This document shows positions 4,555 through 31,976 of a stretch of 64,000 nucleotides of DNA, piece by piece. How positions within the stretch are numbered: the first letter of the stretch is position 1; the number at the start of each line of letters is the position of its first letter. The DNA is from Chloroflexota bacterium. Lineage in GTDB: Bacteria > Chloroflexota > Anaerolineae > J102. The notes under the pieces were generated by a model that searched no databases, had not been told where the DNA came from, and was given only the letters and a program-made list of their open reading frames with translations. The stretch spans positions 24,512-88,511 of the forward strand of contig JAADII010000116.1 in assembly GCA_013151415.1 (NCBI GenBank), read 5' to 3'. The translations under genes were made by a program, and so were the position numbers.

Positions 4555-4895
4555 TTCGTCATGCTTGATACGCTTCCGACCATTTTGTTTACACAACCCT
4601 CCATTGCCATTACAATATGAATGCCTTTGGGTCTTGCCCATGCCTTGCGAGCGAATAATGCATCACGTTGTTCCCATCGTTTCATGGTTCATGGGCTTTG
4701 GCCTTTATTTTCATTCATGATGGTTTCATTCTCCCCAGCCTCTCGCGAACGTCCGCTCATCTTTTTCCGGCGCATGCTGTTTTGTTCGTCTGGCGCTGGA
4801 AATTGCGTTGCGCCTTGCCAGGTCTTTTCAGGTGGGCGGCTTTCATCTCCTCGTTTCTTGAAGGTCATTGCATCTTGGAATATCGATAACACGCC

Positions 4896-5978
4896 ATGGA
4901 CATAGGTATTATTGGTTTGCCCAACAGCGGCAAGACCACTCTATTCAACGCGCTCACCCGCGGCACAGTTGAGACTGCGGGCTATACATCAGGCCGAATG
5001 GAAGTGCACACGGCTATCGTGCAGGTCCCCGACCCGCGCCTGGATCGTCTGGGCGACATGTTTCGCCCCAAAAAGCTCACGCATGCGCATATCACCTATC
5101 GCGATATCGCCGGTTTGGCGCGCGGTATCGGCGAGGCCGGTGGCCTGGCCGGCCCTTTGCTCAATGAAATTGGTCAAAACGACGCGTTGCTTCTGGTCGT
5201 GCGAGCGTTCGAGGACCCAAACATCCTCCATCCCGAAGAGAGCATTGATCCGGCCCGCGATATCGAGTTGGTCGAGACCGAACTTATGCTCAACGATATG
5301 CTCATTATCACAAAACGCTTGGAGCGCATCGACCAGCGCGTGGGCAAAGGCGGCGATCCCAAGGAGGTGGCCGCAATGAAACGAGAGCGCGAGATCCTGG
5401 CGCGGTTGCTGGAACATTTGGAAACCGAGCGACCTTTGCGCGAGTTCGAGTTGGCGCCCGATGAGGAGAAGCTGCTGCGCGGGTTTAGCCTGCTTTCGCA
5501 GAAACCGTTGCTTGTGGTGCTAAACATCGACGAAGACGCGGATGAACGCATGGCGGAAGCGTTTTCCACCCCGACGCGACCCGCCATCGCCTTGCGCGGC
5601 CAACTTGAAGCTGAGCTCGCGCAAATGGAGCCGGATGAAGCAGCGGAGTTTCTGGCCGAATTTGGCATCGAAGAGCCAGGGTTCAACCGCGTTATTCGCG
5701 CCAGTTACGAGTTGATGGATGTTATTTCTTTTTTCACGGTAAGTGAAGAGGAGGTGAGATCCTGGACGATCCGCAAGGGTGCGACCGCCTTGGATGCGGC
5801 CGCCGCTGTGCATAGTGATCTTGCTCGCGGGTTTATTCGCGCCGAGGTTATCGCCTTTGACGAACTGGTGGCGGCCGGATCGTTAGCCGAAGCGCGCCGT
5901 CGCGGGCTGTTGCGGCTGGAGGGCAAGGAATATGTGGTGCAAGATGGCGAAATCGTTCATATTCGTTTCGCATTATGA
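4896..5978 (+). CDS. ychF: Ribosome-binding ATPase YchF (Obg-family GTPase/ATPase with C-terminal TGS domain)
   Basis: MDIGIIGLPNSGKTTLFNALT G1 motif, DIAGL G3 motif, and the C-terminal TGS-like segment FFTVSEEEVRSWTIRKGATALDAAAAVHSDLARGFIRAEVI. Confidence 0.9.
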   Translation: MDIGIIGLPNSGKTTLFNALTRGTVETAGYTSGRMEVHTAIVQVPDPRLDRLGDMFRPKKLTHAHITYRDIAGLARGIGEAGGLAGPLLNEIGQNDALLLVVRAFEDPNILHPEESIDPARDIELVETELMLNDMLIITKRLERIDQRVGKGGDPKEVAAMKREREILARLLEHLETERPLREFELAPDEEKLLRGFSLLSQKPLLVVLNIDEDADERMAEAFSTPTRPAIALRGQLEAELAQMEPDEAAEFLAEFGIEEPGFNRVIRASYELMDVISFFTVSEEEVRSWTIRKGATALDAAAAVHSDLARGFIRAEVIAFDELVAAGSLAEARRRGLLRLEGKEYVVQDGEIVHIRFAL

Positions 5979-27425: not shown

Positions 27426-28517
27426 TTAGGATTCAGAGTCGCCCGTTGGTTGGCGATGGTTGGTCTGCTCATGCACATAATCCACGAGCCGCTTCACATG
27501 GTCGCGAGGCGTGGTGGGGAGAATGCCGTGCCCGAGATTGAAAATGTGCCCTGGCCGACCGTTGGCCCGATTGAGCACATCATCGATTCGCGCCCGCAGT
27601 TCGGGCCAGGGGGCCATCAGGGCTATGGGATCAAGGTTGCCCTGGATGGCTTTTTCCTCGCCGATGCGCGTCCAGAACCAATCCAACGGCATGCGCCAGT
27701 CCACGCCGATGACATCGCCGCCGCAAGCCGCGACATCGTCGATATAGGCCGCGGTTCCGGCGCTGAAGTTGATGATGGGGACGTTGGCTTGCTGCAAAGT
27801 GCGGAAGAGTTCGACATTGTACGGGCGAACATAGCGCAAATAATCGGCCTGGCTTAAGGCCGCGCCCGCCCACGAATCGAAGACTTGCAGGGCCGACGCG
27901 CCGGCTTCCACCTGTTTGAGCAGGTAATCGGCCTGCACCGTGACCAATTTTTTCATCAGGCGACCCCAGGCTTCGGGTTCGCGCATCATCAGGCTCTTGG
28001 TCTTGGCGTAGGTCTTGGAGCCGCGGCCTTCGATGGCGTAACTGGCCAGAGTGAACGGCGCGCCGGCAAAGCCGATGAGCGGGATGCCGCGCGAGGTGAG
28101 CTCTTCGCTTGCAAGCCGGATCGCGGTCAGGGTGTACCGAAGGATCGTCTGTTCGGCTGGAGGCGTGGATAGCCGCTCGATGTCGTAAATGGTGGAGATG
28201 GGATTGTCGAGCAAGGGGCCAATGCCCGGCACGAAATCGAGATTCAGCCCCATGCCCACCAAAGGCGGGAGAATGTCGGCGAAGATGATGGCCGCGTCCA
28301 GATCGAAGGCCTCGATGGGTTGTAAGGTCACCTCGGCCGCGAGCTCGGGCGTGGTGATCATGTCCATCATGCTGTATCGCGCTCGCAACTCGCGATATTC
28401 GTGCATGTATCGCCCGGCCTGGCGCATCAGCCAAACCGGCGTGTGAGCCGCGCGCTCGCGACGACATGCTTGCAGAAAAGGGGAGTTTTCAAGTGATGAG
28501 GCCATGTTCATATTCAT
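27426..28517 (-). CDS. hemE: Uroporphyrinogen decarboxylase
   Basis: [17 protein letters not shown] signature near the N-terminus, over full length. Confidence 0.9.
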
Positions 28518-29554
28518 TCTTCGTGCAGCCAGCGGGCCGCGTCTTTGGCGTGATAGGTGAGAATAAGGTCTGCGCCGGCGCGCTTGATGCCGAGCAGGGT
28601 TTCCAATGTCACTTTCCGCTCGTCCAGCCAGCCCCTGGCCGCGGCCGCTTTGATCATGGCGTACTCACCGCTGACGTTATACGCAGCCAGCGGCAATTGT
28701 GGGAAGGCCGCTTTCACGCGCGCGATGACATCGAGATAAGCCAGGGCGGGCTTGACCATGAGAAAATCGGCGCCCTCCTCCACATCCAGCCCGGCCTCGC
28801 GGAGGGCTTCGCGCGCGTTGGCCGGGTCCATCTGGTGAGATTTGCGATCTCCGAACTGGGGCGCGCCCTCGGCCGCATCGCGAAACGGCCCATAAAACGC
28901 GGACGCGTATTTCACCGCATAGGACATGATGGCGATGTGTTGGAAGCCGTCATCATCCAACGCCCCGCGAATGGCCTGCACCATGCCATCCATCATGCCG
29001 CTGGGCGCGACGATGTCCGCGCCGGCATTGGCATGGGAAACCGCCACTCGACCCAGGATGTCGAGCGTGTCATCGTTCATGATCTCGCCATCCAGGTCGA
29101 GCAGGCCGCAATGCCCGTGGTCGGTGTATTCGCACAGGCACACATCGGTGATGACCACAAGTTCGGGCGCGGCCTGCTTGAGCTCGCGTATGGCCTGCTG
29201 CACGATGCCATCCTCCGCGAAGTTCTCCTGGCCCACCGGGTCTTTGCTCGCGGGGATGCCAAAGAGAATAACCGCGGGAATGCCCAGGCTGAGAATCTCT
29301 TCGGCCTCCGCGGCCAGTTGGTCGATGGAGAGTCGAAACTGGCCGGGCATGGAGGGGATGGGATGGCGCACCCCGCGGCCATGTTGGACGAAAAGAGGAT
29401 AAATGAAATCCGCGGGATTCAATTCGGTCTCGCGCACCATGCGTCGCAATGGTTCGCTGCGACGCAACCGGCGCGGACGGATGGGGAGATTGTATGTGAT
29501 CCACATAAGCTGAAATCGAGTTACTAATGAGATGACAAGATCGATGCTGGCCAA
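28514..29554 (-). CDS. hemB: Porphobilinogen synthase (delta-aminolevulinic acid dehydratase)
   Basis: [21 protein letters not shown]-terminus, an active-site Lys context, and the metal-binding Cys cluster [14 protein letters not shown]. Confidence 0.95.
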
Positions 29555-29595
29555 AGTAATCCCACACTTCCAGGTGGGGCATTTAAGACCAAATA

Positions 29596-29604
29596 TGCTA
29601 GAAT
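29596..29604 (+). promoter_or_regulatory. Candidate extended -10 element (TGcTAGAAT) only 7 nt upstream of the PIN-gene ATG; the transcript may be near-leaderless
   Basis: TG at 29596-29597 and TAGAAT at 29599-29604, with the ATG at 29612. No clear -35 was found. Confidence 0.3.
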
Positions 29605-29611
29605 TGTCAGT

Positions 29612-30064
29612 ATGAAACGGGTCTATCTCGATTTATGCGCCATTCAGCGACCGCTCGATACGCCGAAGCATATTCGGATCATCCTTGAGTCTGAAGCAAT
29701 TCTTGGCATCTTGCGATTTTGCGAGCTCGGCGAGATCGAAATCGTGTCTTCTGACGCACTGGTCTACGAGGCCCAACGCAATCCGCTGGCGCTACGTCGA
29801 GAGCACGCCTTTTCTGTACTGGAAAAGGCTAAGGAACACGTTTCAATCGGAACGCGGAGTGAGCAACGCGCTCAAGAATTCTTGACTCGTGGTCTTAAGC
29901 CATTGGATGCTTTGCACCTGGCGCTGGCCGAAAAAGCCGGAGTCGATTATTTTTGCACTTGCGATGACCGTTTTTTACGAAAGGCCAGGAGAATGCAAGA
30001 CCTTTCTGTTATGGTAGTTTCTCCACTCGAGTTGATCGAAGAGGTGGAAACTTATGGTGATTGA
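29612..30064 (+). CDS. PIN-domain protein (VapC-like predicted ribonuclease)
   Basis: Acidic residues at canonical PIN spacing: D7 in VYLDLCAI, E in ILESEA, D in [13 protein letters not shown], and the C-terminal TCDDRF motif. GC is noticeably lower than in the flanking hem genes. Confidence 0.6.
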
Positions 30065-30278
30065 AACTAAACCTCTCATAGACGTGAATCGGCGAGCCAT
30101 TCATCTGCTTTACAAGGAGCTCGGCATCGTGGATGCGGTCCGCTTTATGCGGCAGTTTGCGGTGGGTTTTGGCGACTACACCGAAGAACGCGACATCCTC
30201 TTTGCAGATCAGAGCCTGGAGGACATCCTGGCCGAAATCGCCGCAAGAAGAAGCGATGTCTCCGTTGTTAAAGAGTAG
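30054..30278 (+). CDS. Small protein (74 aa) overlapping the PIN gene by 11 nt; putative cognate partner (antitoxin-like or DUF433-like) of unknown function
   Basis: ATG at 30054 lies inside the last codons of the PIN ORF. The C-terminal LEDILAEIAA resembles a DUF433-like helical tail. No confident family assignment. Confidence 0.35.
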   Translation: MVIETKPLIDVNRRAIHLLYKELGIVDAVRFMRQFAVGFGDYTEERDILFADQSLEDILAEIAARRSDVSVVKE

Positions 30279-30280
30279 AT

Positions 30281-31060
30281 TTACTCGGCGCTTACAGCAG
30301 TAAAATATGCAGCCAGGGCCTGGACAAGGTGGGGCATGGTGTGACGCGTGGGAACGACGTGGACGGGCAAGCCGACCGCTCGGCACGCGCGCGCGGTAGT
30401 CGGGCCGATGCAGGCGATGACCGCGTCGCGCGTGATTTTCTGAATGAGCGGTTCGGGTTTGGTGATGTCAAGAAAATGGTGAACCGCGGAGGGGCTGGCG
30501 AAGATGATGGCGTCGAAACCGCTTGCCAGGCGGGCGAGAGCCGCTGGATCGGGTGAAGGGGGTGCAGCATCGTAAAGGGGGATGTCGTCCACCTGCGCCC
30601 CGCGGCGACGAAGAATCTCAATGATTTCGGGCCGTCCCTTGCGCGAGCGGGGAAGCAGAACGCGACGACCGCGCACATCACCCAGGCCGCGGGCCAGGGC
30701 TTCGCCCGTGAATTTATCGGGGATGAAATCAACGCGCACCCCGCGCGCTTCCAAGAGTTGGGCCGTGGCCGCGCCCACCGCAGCCACTTTTGGGCCGTTC
30801 GTCCTCCTTGAAACTTGCCCCTGCCCCAAATTTTCGGCAAAGAAGCGCACCGCGTTGGCGCTGCTAAAGATCACCCAATCATAATCAGCCAGATGCGGTC
30901 TGACCCGCTTGAGCTCAGGTGAATCGAGGGCGATGAAAGTGATGGCGGGAAAGAGAATAGCTTCCGCGCCCAGGGCCTCGAGCAAAGCTTTTGTTTCAAC
31001 GGCCTGCTCTGCGCTACGCGTGATCACGACCCGGCGGTTGGTCAAGGGTTTAGCGCTCAT
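30281..31060 (-). CDS. hemD: Uroporphyrinogen-III synthase
   Basis: Start trimmed to MSAKPLTNRRVVITRSAEQAVETKALLEALGAEAI (the track ORF extends upstream into hemC). HemD-like two-lobe pattern with VAAVGAATAQLL and IACIGPTTA. Confidence 0.8.
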   Translation of the reverse strand: MSAKPLTNRRVVITRSAEQAVETKALLEALGAEAILFPAITFIALDSPELKRVRPHLADYDWVIFSSANAVRFFAENLGQGQVSRRTNGPKVAAVGAATAQLLEARGVRVDFIPDKFTGEALARGLGDVRGRRVLLPRSRKGRPEIIEILRRRGAQVDDIPLYDAAPPSPDPAALARLASGFDAIIFASPSAVHHFLDITKPEPLIQKITRDAVIACIGPTTARACRAVGLPVHVVPTRHTMPHLVQALAAYFTAVSAE

Positions 31061-31976
31061 AAACCAGCAACTCCTTTGCGCCTTGCTCGAGCGCTTGTTG
31101 AGCCATGCGACGGCCCAAGGCCTCGGCGTCCGATCCGCTCCCCTCCACCCGCACCACGGCCCCGCCATCCACGGCCGCGACCAGGGCGGTGAGATGGATT
31201 TCACGATTCGGCGGAGGCGCGTACGCGGCCACGGGCGTGGAGCATCCCGCGCCCAACGCATGCATGAACGCGCGCTCGGCCACCACCGCGGCCTCCACTT
31301 CGGGCTGATGGATGGCCTGCAAGATGCGCCGCGTGCGTTCGTCGTCGCCGCGACACTGCACGGCCAGCGCGCCCTGACCCGGCGCGGGCAACATCAACCC
31401 CAGCGGAAGGCGCTGACGGATATGGCGCTCGAGACCCAACCGCTCGAGACCGGCCGCGGCCATGATCGCGGCGTCGTATTGGCCTTCCATCACTTTGCGC
31501 ACGCGGGTCTCCACATTGCCGCGGATGGATTTCACCTGCAAATCAGGGCGATGATGCAAAATTTGCGCCTGTCGCCGCAAGCTGCTGGTCCCCACCACCG
31601 AGCCGGGCGGCAACGTCTCCAACGTCCACGGCTCCCGCGCCACCAACACATCCCGCACATCGGCTCGCCCCACCAGCGCGCCCAACACCAGCCCCTGGGC
31701 ATTCTCCACAGGCAAATCTTTGAGCGAGTGCACGGCCAGGTCGATCTCGCCCTCTCGCAACGCGCGCTCCAATTCCTGCGTAAAAAGTCCCTTGCCGCCG
31801 ATTTTGGGCAAGGCCAGATGAAGCGTCTTGTCACCCCGGGTGACGAAAGGTCGCGTCCGGCATTCGATCTCCGGCCAGGCGCGACCGATTAGCTCGATGA
31901 TGTGGTTCGTTTGCCACATCGCCAGCTTCGATGTGCGGGTTCCGATGATGAGGGCGGTTTTCATGGAAAAAGACAA
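31050..31976 (-). CDS. hemC: Hydroxymethylbilane synthase (porphobilinogen deaminase)
   Basis: IGTRTSKLAMWQT...VHSLKDLP...GTSSLRR...RGNVETR canonical motifs. Confidence 0.95.
   Translation of the reverse strand: MSFSMKTALIIGTRTSKLAMWQTNHIIELIGRAWPEIECRTRPFVTRGDKTLHLALPKIGGKGLFTQELERALREGEIDLAVHSLKDLPVENAQGLVLGALVGRADVRDVLVAREPWTLETLPPGSVVGTSSLRRQAQILHHRPDLQVKSIRGNVETRVRKVMEGQYDAAIMAAAGLERLGLERHIRQRLPLGLMLPAPGQGALAVQCRGDDERTRRILQAIHQPEVEAAVVAERAFMHALGAGCSTPVAAYAPPPNREIHLTALVAAVDGGAVVRVEGSGSDAEALGRRMAQQALEQGAKELLVYER

What the first reader, a model, noticed from the sequence alone, without database searches (positions are those of the whole stretch)
29555..30280. Lower-GC PIN-domain gene plus overlapping 74-aa partner, inserted antisense between hemD and hemB in the heme operon
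The hem genes A-C-D and B-E-L are otherwise contiguous on the minus strand. Between hemD and hemB sits a plus-strand two-gene cassette with visibly lower GC (about 50%). Its first gene is a PIN-domain protein with acidic residues in canonical positions and a TCDDRF motif. Its second gene is an 11-nt-overlapping small ORF. The gene order (nuclease first) is the reverse of classic VapBC. An extended -10 (TGcTAGAAT) lies 7 nt from the ATG, suggesting a near-leaderless transcript.

It looks like a horizontally acquired toxin-antitoxin-like or defence-associated module splitting a conserved biosynthetic operon. Its antisense placement means hem transcription must read through it or restart.
Basis: partly seen in the sequence, partly recalled or inferred. 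Interest (0 to 1): 0.5.

Follow-up and report, generated by a model that had tools for sequence, protein, structure and literature searches.

The report
Toxin-first PIN module splitting heme operon
A small mobile two-gene cassette, a VapC-like PIN nuclease followed by a conserved but unnamed 74-residue partner, has landed antisense between hemD and hemB; it is most likely an inverted-order toxin-antitoxin module whose partner belongs to a large uncharacterised family.

Summary
A 150-aa PIN gene (29612-30064) and an 11-nt-overlapping 74-aa gene (30054-30278) lie on the + strand between minus-strand hemD and hemB. Their GC is 50%, against 59% for the window.

The pair is a conserved module. In 11 independent genomic contexts, plus cyanobacterial plasmids, the same PIN family is followed by the same partner family, each time among unrelated neighbours and with lower GC than the flanks. 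Six relatives have hemD abutting hemB with no cassette.

The PIN has a VapC-like fold (pLDDT 95.7) and all catalytic acidic residues are invariant. The partner family has about 2,500 members and matches nothing in Pfam, NCBIfam, PADLOC, PHROGs or the PDB by sequence or fold. It carries an invariant G-x-G-x-Y-T-x-E-R motif and is more conserved than the PIN.

A TG(C/T)TAnAAT extended -10 box sits 5-7 nt before the PIN start in 7 of 10 loci, with no Shine-Dalgarno. That implies a leaderless toxin mRNA. The partner has a GGAG-type SD.

Best reading: a horizontally acquired, toxin-first, VapC-type type II toxin-antitoxin module with a new antitoxin family. Toxicity and neutralisation are untested. 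It is a new variant of a known kind, of moderate interest.

The parts
29596..29604 (+). Extended -10 promoter box TGCTAGAAT, 7 nt upstream of the PIN ATG, with no Shine-Dalgarno between them. Predicted transcription start is at or next to the A of the ATG (leaderless mRNA).
   Evidence: Sequence. TG(C/T)TAnAAT lies 5-7 nt before the PIN start in 7 of 10 independent loci, while the sequence further upstream is unrelated. Background frequency of the motif is 3.45e-5 per nt. The generic sigma-70 scan found no -35/-10 pair, which is consistent with a -35-independent extended -10 promoter.
29612..30064 (+). PIN-domain gene, 150 aa, VapC-like putative ribonuclease toxin.
   Evidence: Pfam PF01850 E=4.9e-10, above the cut-off. 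1,792 homologues. Invariant D7, E26, E28, D99, E107, D118, D119. AF2 pLDDT 95.7, pTM 0.90. Foldseek top hits are all VapC toxins, TM 0.53-0.66. NCBI names the identical protein 'type II toxin-antitoxin system VapC family toxin'.
30041..30047 (+). Shine-Dalgarno-like GAGGTGG, 6 nt upstream of the partner ATG, embedded in the PIN C-terminal codons (EEVE).
   Evidence: Sequence. GGAG-type motifs occur at the same place in the other loci, inside the conserved QEIE/EEVE codons.
30054..30278 (+). Partner gene, 74 aa: a small helical protein of an unnamed family and the putative antitoxin. It overlaps the PIN gene by 11 nt.
   Evidence: 2,533 homologues by profile search and 1,593 cluster representatives at 50% identity. 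Invariant L19 and R46; near-invariant G24, R30, F31, Q34, G38, G40, Y42, T43. No hit in Pfam, NCBIfam, PADLOC or PHROGs. No PDB match by sequence or fold. AF2 model has four helices, pLDDT 68.5. The N-terminus is conserved from ATG 30054; the public record annotates a shorter 66-aa product.
30281..31060 (-). hemD (uroporphyrinogen-III synthase). Its stop codon (30283-30281) lies 2 nt from the partner's stop, convergent with it.
   Evidence: Pfam HEM4 E=3.8e-62. Its C-terminus is homologous to those of relatives, so it is native.
28514..29554 (-). hemB (porphobilinogen synthase). The likely start is ATG 29506 (the ORF extends to TTG 29554). It is divergent from the PIN gene, separated by about 105 nt.
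   Evidence: Pfam ALAD E=6e-151. N-terminal comparison with L020 and L029.
29572..29582 (+). Left copy of the 11-nt perfect direct repeat AGGTGGGGCAT. The right copy is at 30327-30337, inside hemD. It may be an insertion or duplication scar; its significance is uncertain.
   Evidence: An exact 11-mer shared by the two flanks appeared in 8 of 5,000 shuffles, but the flanks were chosen after seeing the repeat, and similarity does not extend beyond the 11 nt.

Best explanation
The cassette is a self-contained, horizontally acquired type II toxin-antitoxin-like module of about 0.7 kb, arranged in 'toxin-first' order.

Proposed mechanism:
- Its own extended -10 promoter starts transcription at or next to the PIN ATG, so the VapC-like PIN ribonuclease is translated from a leaderless mRNA.
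- The downstream 74-aa helical partner overlaps the PIN gene and has a GGAG-type Shine-Dalgarno. It is therefore made at least as efficiently as the toxin despite being second in the operon.
- The partner binds and neutralises the PIN, probably through its invariant R-F..Q-F..G-x-G-x-Y-T-x-E-R segment.

The module inserted precisely between hemD and hemB, which are otherwise adjacent, and it faces the hem genes. As a result, hemB-hemE-hemL must be expressed either by read-through antisense to the cassette or from a new promoter in the 105-nt divergent spacer.

What is shown:
- gene pair, family membership and fold of the PIN, and an intact catalytic site;
- strict PIN-partner linkage;
- mobility and compositional foreignness;
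- absence of the cassette from related hem operons;
- conserved promoter and SD architecture.

What is inferred:
- toxicity;
- direct neutralisation by the partner;
- the leaderless transcription start;
- the consequences for hem expression.
For: PIN is VapC-like:
- Pfam PF01850.
- Invariant acidic residues at the positions that the PIN classification paper (PMC5499597) describes as defining the active site, mapped on the AF2 secondary structure: D7 after strand 1, D/E48 after strand 2, D99 at a helix N-terminus, D118/D119 after strand 4.
- Best structural neighbours are Shigella, Mycobacterium tuberculosis and Salmonella VapC and FitB.

Linkage:
- 11 of 11 independent contexts have the PIN followed by the partner on the same strand, overlapping by 4-14 nt or, in L049, separated by 4 nt.
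- This includes the most divergent pair: PIN 35% identical, partner 45-47% identical.
- The same order is seen on four cyanobacterial plasmids.

Mobility:
- The neighbours are unrelated in every locus.
- Module GC is below flank GC in 10 of 10 loci.
- The cassette is within the lowest 2.2% of GC windows in this sequence.
- hemD abuts hemB in six relatives, with gaps of 11 nt (L029) and 1 nt (L020) measured in two of them, and no hem locus carries the cassette.

Expression architecture: a conserved extended -10 box 5-7 nt from the PIN start, without an SD, in 7 of 10 loci; an SD before the partner. In Synechocystis, all TA loci with leaderless initiation have reverse gene order (PMC4963859).

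TA-like decay pattern: a deltaproteobacterial plasmid carries a truncated, frameshifted PIN next to an intact partner.
Against: - The partner is more conserved than the PIN in 32 of 45 pairs. That is atypical for antitoxins, which usually evolve faster than their toxins (own knowledge).
- The charge pattern is not the classic acidic antitoxin with basic toxin: mean pI is 5.5 for the PIN and 6.7 for the partner.
- The generic promoter scan found nothing, and there are no transcription data.
- No complex model could be made.
- The one apparent PIN-partner fusion (P0375) is probably a frameshift artefact.
Confidence: 0.65

Rival explanations
1. The pair is a two-subunit nuclease rather than an addiction or stress module. 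In this reading the partner is an obligate cofactor, such as a specificity, RNA-binding or activating subunit, and the PIN is inactive or mis-targeted without it.
For: - The partner is unusually well conserved: mean column identity is 70% among close members, the G-x-G-x-Y-T-x-E-R motif is invariant or nearly so, and it is more conserved than the PIN in 32 of 45 pairs.
- It is a folded helical domain that also occurs as tandem two-domain proteins and next to HTH-like segments.
- It has no known antitoxin domain.
- A weak, recurring but sub-threshold resemblance to the alpha1-beta2 segment of Sex-lethal RRMs (E 0.03-0.5).
Against: - Patchy distribution, variable neighbourhoods, plasmid carriage and foreign composition are hallmarks of selfish TA modules, not of housekeeping enzymes.
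- A degraded PIN beside an intact partner fits an antidote better than a cofactor, since a cofactor would be useless once its enzyme is lost.
- The RRM resemblance is not significant, and the AF2 model is all-helical.
Confidence: 0.17
2. The module is an anti-phage defence (abortive infection) system, with the PIN as effector and the partner as sensor or inhibitor released on infection.
For: - Many TA modules act in phage defence (PMC10440598).
- A weak PADLOC hit of the PIN to PDC-M11A (E=9e-4, 16 bits).
- One locus lies next to BrnTA and one near an integrase.
Against: - No PADLOC model matches the partner, and the PIN hit is marginal.
- Most neighbourhoods are ordinary metabolic genes, not defence islands.
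- No copies occur on viral contigs or phage genomes.
- This reading is a possible physiological role of the TA module rather than a distinct mechanism.
Confidence: 0.1
3. The cassette is an assembly chimera in this metagenome-assembled genome and is not really located between hemD and hemB.
For: - The window comes from a MAG contig.
- The compositional change at both junctions is abrupt.
Against: - Both flanks are syntenic parts of one hem cluster in the expected order and orientation.
- The junctions are tight: 2 nt from the hemD stop and about 105 nt from the hemB start.
- A chimera would have to insert 0.77 kb cleanly without disturbing either gene.
- The module is found inserted between unrelated genes in many other assemblies.
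Confidence: 0.03

Closest known systems
VapBC type II toxin-antitoxin systems (PIN-domain VapC toxin with VapB antitoxin), e.g. Shigella/F-plasmid VapBC, M. tuberculosis VapBCs, FitAB
   Same: - The toxin is a roughly 130-150-aa single-domain PIN with the conserved acidic active site and a VapC-like fold.
- Two small overlapping genes in one operon.
- Scattered, mobile, plasmid- and chromosome-borne distribution.
   Different: - Gene order is inverted, with the toxin first.
- The partner shows no AbrB, RHH, Phd/YefM or HTH DNA-binding domain and no sequence or fold similarity to any solved VapB.
- The PIN family has no sequence-level match to any PDB chain and only 13-21% identity to solved VapCs.
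- The toxin mRNA is predicted to be leaderless.
- The partner is more conserved than the toxin.
Toxin-first type II systems: higBA, hicAB, mqsRA, rnlAB
   Same: - The toxin gene precedes the antitoxin gene, an arrangement reported for only a few families (PMC4803016).
- Some device is needed to keep the antitoxin in excess. mqsA has its own promoters (PMC6918082). Here the device is inferred to be a leaderless toxin versus an SD-driven partner.
- In Synechocystis, leaderless TA loci all have reverse order (PMC4963859).
   Different: The toxins of those families are RelE-like, HicA, MqsR or RnlA folds rather than PIN, and their antitoxins carry recognisable HTH, zinc or RHH DNA-binding domains. 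There is no homology to either component here.
PIN toxins paired with novel small antitoxin domains in the NetFlax network (e.g. PIN D128:SpnP1/SpnP2, PIN D59:SpnP3/DUF2680)
   Same: PIN toxins are known to recombine with many unrelated, often unannotated, small antitoxin domains, several of which were validated by toxicity-neutralisation assays (PMC10440598).
   Different: No evidence was found that this partner family is among the NetFlax nodes. The named ones have Pfam DUFs or RHH folds, whereas this one has none. The held copy of the supplementary dataset is truncated, and only passages for a few search terms were read, so absence from NetFlax is not proven.

Membership tests
PIN domain (Pfam PF01850) / VapC-like nucleases | Significant match to the PIN profile above the curated threshold | tested here: met
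   E=4.9e-10, 40.5 bits against a gathering score of 23.6.
PIN domain (Pfam PF01850) / VapC-like nucleases | At least four conserved acidic residues: after strand 1, after strand 2, at the N-terminus of helix 4 and after strand 4 (definition from PMC5499597) | tested here: met
   D7 (after E2-6), D48 in the window (after E42-47; D or E at this position in family members), D99 (N-terminus of H97-108) and D118/D119 (after E113-115). D7, D99, D118 and D119 are invariant in 33 sequences.
PIN domain (Pfam PF01850) / VapC-like nucleases | [quoted passage not shown] | tested here: met
   The AF2 model (pLDDT 95.7) has only VapC, FitB and PAE2754 among its top 37 Foldseek hits, with probability 1.00 and TM 0.53-0.66.
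PIN domain (Pfam PF01850) / VapC-like nucleases | Mg2+/Mn2+-dependent ribonuclease activity and growth inhibition on expression | not testable with these tools
   Requires expression and cleavage assays.
Canonical VapBC type II TA module | Antitoxin gene upstream of the toxin gene | tested here: not met
   The PIN is first in the window and in all 11 contexts and the plasmid copies.
Canonical VapBC type II TA module | Antitoxin with an N-terminal DNA-binding domain (AbrB/SpoVT, RHH, Phd/YefM or HTH) | tested here: not met
   No Pfam or NCBIfam hit for the window protein or for 39 plus 71 family members. No PDB sequence or fold match. The model confidence is only moderate (pLDDT 68.5), so a cryptic helical DNA-binding motif cannot be excluded.
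Type II toxin-antitoxin module (generic) | Two small adjacent co-oriented genes in one operon, strictly co-inherited | tested here: met
   11-nt overlap in the window. In the other contexts the genes overlap by 4-14 nt or, in L049, are separated by 4 nt. Linkage holds in 11 of 11 contexts, including the most divergent pair.
Type II toxin-antitoxin module (generic) | Patchy, horizontally mobile distribution, including plasmids | tested here: met
   Unrelated neighbourhoods; Chloroflexota, Armatimonadota, Parcubacteria, cyanobacterial and deltaproteobacterial plasmids; module GC below flank GC in 10 of 10 loci.
Type II toxin-antitoxin module (generic) | The antitoxin protein binds and neutralises the toxin, and toxicity is rescued by co-expression | not testable with these tools
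Indirect support only: a degraded PIN beside an intact partner in L052.
Known anti-phage defence systems (PADLOC-DB) | Match of the components to a defence-system model | tested here: not met
   The partner has no hit. The PIN has only PDC-M11A at E=9e-4, 16 bits, covering the PIN part of a 486-position model. No viral or phage copies.

The most novel reading that the evidence does not exclude
The 70-aa partner defines a structurally new protein family, with no Pfam, PDB or fold neighbour and an invariant G-x-G-x-Y-T-x-E-R motif. It may not be a conventional labile antitoxin. It could instead be a stably folded, dimerising regulatory subunit of a distinct PIN nuclease, being more conserved than the enzyme itself and occurring as tandem repeats and HTH fusions. 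The pair would then be a new kind of two-component RNA-processing or regulatory system, spread as a promoter-containing leaderless cassette through Chloroflexota, cyanobacteria and other phyla.
Probability: 0.2. Interest if true: 0.6.

Novelty: new variant of a known kind. Interest (0 to 1): 0.4.

Why it matters
- **New family.** It would add a large antitoxin/partner family (about 2,500 sequences at 90% clustering and about 1,600 clusters at 50%) to the VapC world. Every member that a source names is currently called 'hypothetical protein'. It would also extend the short list of toxin-first type II architectures to PIN toxins.
- **Dosage control.** The conserved layout suggests a simple built-in solution to the dosage problem of toxin-first operons: an extended -10 box abutting the start codon (leaderless toxin) and an SD-driven partner. 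This can be tested.
- **Natural experiment.** The precise antisense insertion into an otherwise tightly packed heme-biosynthesis operon shows how a selfish cassette perturbs, or is tolerated within, an essential operon.
- **Tractable material.** Copies on plasmids of cultured cyanobacteria (Chroococcidiopsis, Planktothrix, Nostoc, Calothrix) make the system experimentally accessible.

Tried and rejected
1. **Modelling the complex through the natural 'fusion' P0375.** MAFFT mis-aligned the partner rows onto the PIN C-terminus (A3). P0375 lacks the last PIN strand and helix, and its linker ends in T-M-NAQA. It is most likely a frameshift artefact, so it was discounted.
2. **AFDB fold search.** The library was unavailable.
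4. **Deeper partner profiles.** A2 (39 sequences) and A6 (71 diverse representatives) against Pfam and the PDB gave only scattered single hits and a sub-threshold resemblance to Sex-lethal RRM (E 0.03-0.5). This was rejected because it is not significant and the model is all-helical.
5. **PIN profile against PDB sequences.** No true hit.
6. **Mirror-tree co-divergence of PIN and partner.** r=0.74 overall but r=0.05 without the one distant pair, so it shows only co-inheritance.
7. **Charge asymmetry test.** No classic acidic-antitoxin and basic-toxin pattern.
8. **Viral and phage association.** None found.
9. **Closer relatives for dating the insertion.** The best hemD identity was 44% in genomes and 49% in metagenomes, so timing cannot be judged.
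10. **The 11-nt direct repeat as a target-site duplication.** It is unlikely by chance (8 of 5,000 shuffles), but the right-hand copy lies inside the native hemD coding sequence 46 nt from the stop, and similarity does not extend. A simple target-site-duplication model does not fit.
11. **NetFlax SynP1.** It pairs with YafQ, not PIN, so it is not this family.
12. **Rfam scan of the window.** No RNA family found.
13. **Generic sigma-70 scan.** No -35/-10 promoter in 28400-31200.
Full report
**1. Checking the observation**

The ORF list shows a 150-aa ORF at 29612-30064 (+) and a 74-aa ORF at 30054-30278 (+), overlapping by 11 nt (sequence). The first ORF matches Pfam PIN (PF01850) at E=4.9e-10 and 40.5 bits, above the gathering score of 23.6.

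The minus-strand neighbours are confirmed by Pfam:
- hemB: ALAD, E=6e-151
- hemD: HEM4, E=4e-62
- hemA: GlutR_N and GlutR_dimer
- hemC: Porphobil_deam
- hemE: URO-D
- hemL: Aminotran_3

The partner's stop codon (30276-30278) and the hemD stop codon (30283-30281) are convergent and 2 nt apart. The PIN ATG lies about 105 nt from the probable hemB ATG at 29506.

Composition:
- The cassette is 50.0% GC, against 58.7% for the window and 58-65% for the hem genes.
- GC3 is 0.50 (PIN) and 0.61 (partner), against 0.63-0.81 for the hem genes.
- Only 2.2% of 600-nt windows are this low in GC, and two of those seven windows are the cassette itself.

TGCTAGAAT lies at 29596-29604, 7 nt before the ATG.

**2. 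The two genes form a conserved, mobile module**

The PIN has 1,792 homologues at E<=1e-3, mostly 146-147 aa. The window protein is identical to a protein from a Chloroflexi MAG that NCBI names 'type II toxin-antitoxin system VapC family toxin'.

A single-sequence search with the partner found only 7 relatives. A profile of these found 2,533, and an exhaustive HMM search found 1,593 cluster representatives at 50% identity. None has a Pfam domain on record, and those that a source names are called 'hypothetical protein'.

I looked up genomic contexts starting from PIN homologues (P0010, P0017, P0097, P0126, P0045, P0087) and from partner homologues (P0002, P0004, P0144, P0006). In every one of 11 independent contexts, counting the window, the PIN gene is followed on the same strand by a 66-77-aa ORF that aligns with the window's partner along its whole length. 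The two genes overlap by 4-14 nt or, in L049, are separated by 4 nt.

The neighbouring genes are unrelated from locus to locus. They include arabinose isomerase, amidohydrolase, amidase with BrnTA and POR, an ABC transporter with a Cys/Met enzyme, HIT with UDG, an integrase with a short-chain dehydrogenase, RecJ with a methyltransferase, Rce1-like, and aldo-keto reductase.

Even the most divergent partner (45-47% identical) lies downstream of a PIN of the same family (35% identical, E=9e-26).

The module also occurs on plasmids of cultured cyanobacteria (Chroococcidiopsis CCNUC1 pB, Planktothrix agardhii NIES-204, Nostoc TCL26-01, Calothrix NIES-22). It is again PIN-first there, annotated as 'PIN domain-containing protein' plus 'hypothetical protein'. 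It is absent from viral contigs, phage genomes and PHROGs.

In all 10 loci measured, the module has lower GC than its flanks, by 2.5 to 17 points.

**3. Is it an insertion into the hem operon?**

I fetched 26 loci around hemD relatives from genomes and metagenomes. Seven of them contain both hemD and hemB.
- In six (L020, L029, L030, L031, L033, L034) hemB follows hemD directly. In L029 hemD ends at 4765 and hemB starts at 4777. In L020 the positions are 4795 and 4797.
- The seventh (L035) has a same-strand radical-SAM heme-pathway gene in between and belongs to a distant lineage.

None of the 26 loci carries the PIN or the partner.

The window's hemD C-terminus (...HLVQALAAYF...) aligns with those of the relatives (...GLLEALARY..., ...GLVAALVRWF...), so the insertion lies downstream of an intact native hemD.

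The inference of a lineage-specific insertion is therefore well supported. However, the closest hemD is only 44-49% identical, so nothing can be said about when it happened or how widely it is shared among close relatives.

An 11-nt perfect direct repeat (AGGTGGGGCAT, 29572-29582 and 30327-30337) brackets the cassette. It is rare in shuffles (8 of 5,000). Its right-hand copy lies inside native hemD coding sequence, and the similarity does not extend beyond the 11 nt. I record it as a possible scar of uncertain meaning.

**4. The PIN protein**

An alignment of 33 family members shows D7, E26, E28, D99, E107, D118 and D119 to be invariant, along with R13, D16, R22, S46, S47, H102 and T116. The AF2 model is very confident (pLDDT 95.7, pTM 0.90).

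Mapped on its secondary structure, the acidic residues fall where the PIN superfamily classification places the active site (PMC5499597):
- after strand 1: D7
- after strand 2: D48 in the window, D or E in family members
- at the N-terminus of the helix at 97-108: D99
- after strand 4: D118/D119

The best Foldseek matches in the PDB are all VapC toxins or close kin: Shigella VapC 5ecw (E=3e-5), M. tuberculosis VapC 3h87, 6a7v and 4chg, Salmonella VapC, FitB and PAE2754. TM-scores are 0.53-0.66 and sequence identity only 13-21%. No PDB chain matches by sequence, even with a family profile. The protein is thus a bona fide but divergent VapC-like PIN with an intact catalytic site.

**5. The partner**

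It is strongly conserved. Mean column identity is 70% among 39 close members. In a diverse set of 71 cluster representatives, L19 and R46 are invariant, and G24, R30, F31, Q34, G38, G40, Y42 and T43 are nearly so. This defines the signature L..LG...(v)RF..QF..G.G.YT.ER.

The N-terminus is conserved from the ATG at 30054. The public record instead annotates a 66-aa product beginning MDVNRR, which omits eight conserved residues.

It has no hit in Pfam, NCBIfam, PADLOC or PHROGs, whether as a single sequence or across 39 and 71 members. It has no significant hit to PDB sequences by phmmer or by profile.

Some longer family members carry two tandem partner domains (P0255, P0261, P0267, P0287, P0249, P0270), which hints at function as a dimer. 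Others carry a partner domain followed by an HTH-like segment: P0271 with HTH_38 at E=5e-5, below the Pfam cut-off, and P0285 with a weak winged-helix hit.

The apparent PIN-partner fusion P0375 lacks the last PIN strand and helix, and its 'linker' runs into ...T-M-NAQA. It is best explained as a frameshift joining the two overlapping frames, so I do not count it as evidence.

The partner is more conserved than the PIN in 32 of 45 pairwise comparisons. This is unusual for an antitoxin (own knowledge).

On a deltaproteobacterial plasmid, an intact partner lies next to a truncated, frameshifted remnant of the same PIN family. That decay pattern is expected if the partner is the antidote.

**6. 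Expression architecture**

Aligning the 70 nt upstream of the PIN start in 10 independent loci shows no similarity except one element. TG(C/T)TAnAAT lies 5-7 nt before the ATG or GTG in 7 of 10 loci, often preceded by a further TG or GTG, and there is no Shine-Dalgarno in between. The motif's background frequency in all fetched sequence is 3.45e-5 per nt, so seven occurrences in a 3-nt positional window cannot be chance.

An extended -10 promoter ending 5-7 nt from the start codon places the transcription start at or next to the A of the ATG. That is an inference from standard promoter geometry, and it means a leaderless mRNA for the PIN.

The generic sigma-70 scan found no -35/-10 pair. This is compatible with an extended -10 promoter that does not need a -35 element.

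By contrast, the partner's ATG is preceded at 5-8 nt by GGAG-type sequences embedded in the conserved PIN C-terminal codons. In the window this is GAGGTGG at 30041-30047.

Toxin-first order has been reported for only a few type II families: higBA, hicAB, mqsRA and rnlAB (PMC4803016). These need some way of keeping the antitoxin in excess, for example the dedicated mqsA promoters (PMC6918082). In Synechocystis, all TA loci with leaderless initiation have reverse gene order (PMC4963859). I therefore infer that a leaderless toxin plus an SD-driven, translationally coupled partner is this module's dosage device.

**7. Consequences for the hem cluster**

With only 2 nt between the convergent stop codons, there is no room for a terminator between hemD and the cassette. 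hemB-hemE-hemL must therefore be transcribed either by read-through from hemA-C-D, antisense across about 0.7 kb of cassette, or from a promoter in the 105-nt spacer shared divergently with the PIN promoter.

The scan lists a weak terminator-like hairpin on the minus strand at 29578-29561, and I could see only imperfect promoter-like hexamers. This question needs transcript data.

**8. Verdict**

The most likely explanation (confidence about 0.65) is a horizontally acquired, toxin-first, VapC-type type II toxin-antitoxin module with a leaderless toxin message and a partner from a large, hitherto unnamed family.

The main rival (about 0.17) is that the partner is a cofactor or regulatory subunit rather than an antidote. 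This is prompted by its high conservation and by the absence of any known antitoxin domain. A defence role (about 0.1) would be a physiological gloss on the TA reading and has no direct support. Assembly chimerism is very unlikely.

With respect to known systems, this works like a VapBC module, but it fails two canonical VapBC features: antitoxin-first order and a recognisable DNA-binding antitoxin. I therefore class it as a new variant of a known kind.

Interest is moderate (0.4). The biology of TA cassettes inserting into operons is ordinary. The unannotated family of about 2,500 members, the conserved leaderless promoter layout, and the availability of copies in cultured cyanobacteria make it a worthwhile, readily testable addition.

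Noticed in passing
window 29572-29582 and 30327-30337: An 11-nt perfect direct repeat, AGGTGGGGCAT, brackets the cassette. On the minus strand it reads ATGCCCCACCT, which encodes 'MPHL' in the hemD C-terminus. It occurred in 8 of 5,000 shuffles of the flanks, but the right-hand copy lies inside native hemD coding sequence, so it does not fit a simple target-site duplication.
   Followed up: partly
window 30054-30278: The public record annotates the partner as a 66-aa protein starting MDVNRR (P0001), apparently from a non-ATG codon at about 30078. Family alignments show conservation from the ATG at 30054 (M-x-x-E-x-K-P-L), so the deposited start is probably 8 codons too short.
   Followed up: yes
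window 29506-29554 (minus strand): The hemB start is ambiguous. The ORF opens at TTG 29554, but the ATG at 29506 ([16 protein letters not shown]) gives an N-terminus closer in length to relatives. No clear Shine-Dalgarno precedes either. The choice changes the divergent spacer to the PIN gene from 57 to 105 nt.
   Followed up: partly
window 29561-29578 (minus strand): A terminator-like hairpin, CCCAC-CTGGAAGT-GTGGG followed by ATTACTTTGG, lies between the cassette and hemB and overlaps the 11-nt repeat. If functional, it would stop antisense read-through before hemB. Another terminator-like site on the + strand at 30414-30429 lies inside hemD, downstream of the partner.
   Followed up: no
L052 2117-2692 (Deltaproteobacteria bacterium Smac51 plasmid CP026659.1): An intact partner homologue lies next to a 106-aa ORF that is an N-terminally truncated, C-terminally frameshifted remnant of the same PIN family. 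The toxin has decayed while the partner is retained. The record holds a second partner-like match that was not examined.
   Followed up: partly
proteins P0255, P0261, P0267, P0287, P0249, P0270; P0271, P0285: The partner domain also occurs as tandem two-domain proteins, and fused to C-terminal HTH-like segments (HTH_38 at E=5e-5, below the cut-off; a weak winged-helix hit). Their genomic contexts could not be looked up with the tools allowed.
   Followed up: no
L004 vs L005 (about 4650-5260): Immediately downstream of the PIN/partner module lies a BrnT/BrnA toxin-antitoxin pair on the opposite strand. In L004 and L006 no brnT gene is called and a different 105-aa ORF appears in its place, whereas L005 and L007 have brnT. 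This suggests polymorphism of a neighbouring TA module between otherwise near-identical contigs.
   Followed up: no
L016 3438-4006: In this locus a third gene, DUF2442 (112 aa), overlaps the partner's end by 4 nt. DUF2442 is itself often found in small TA-like pairs, so this may be a stacked module.
   Followed up: no
L035 2-2433: In a distant lineage hemD is the C-terminal part of a fused 423-aa protein, and a 387-aa ORF that looks like a radical-SAM protein (own reading of the sequence, not scanned) lies between it and hemB. This is the only relative where hemD and hemB are not adjacent.
   Followed up: partly
partner residues about 9-39 (window 30078-30170): A recurring sub-threshold similarity to the alpha1-beta2 segment of Sex-lethal RRM domains (E 0.03-0.5 in three searches; one family member hits Pfam RRM_1 at E=0.05). 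It is not significant and conflicts with the all-helical AF2 model.
   Followed up: partly
window 29589-29599 and 29667-29677: An 11-nt inverted repeat (CCAAATATGCT / AGCATATTCGG, 91% complementary) flanks the -10 box and the first 20 codons of the PIN gene. It could be an operator pair or chance.
   Followed up: no
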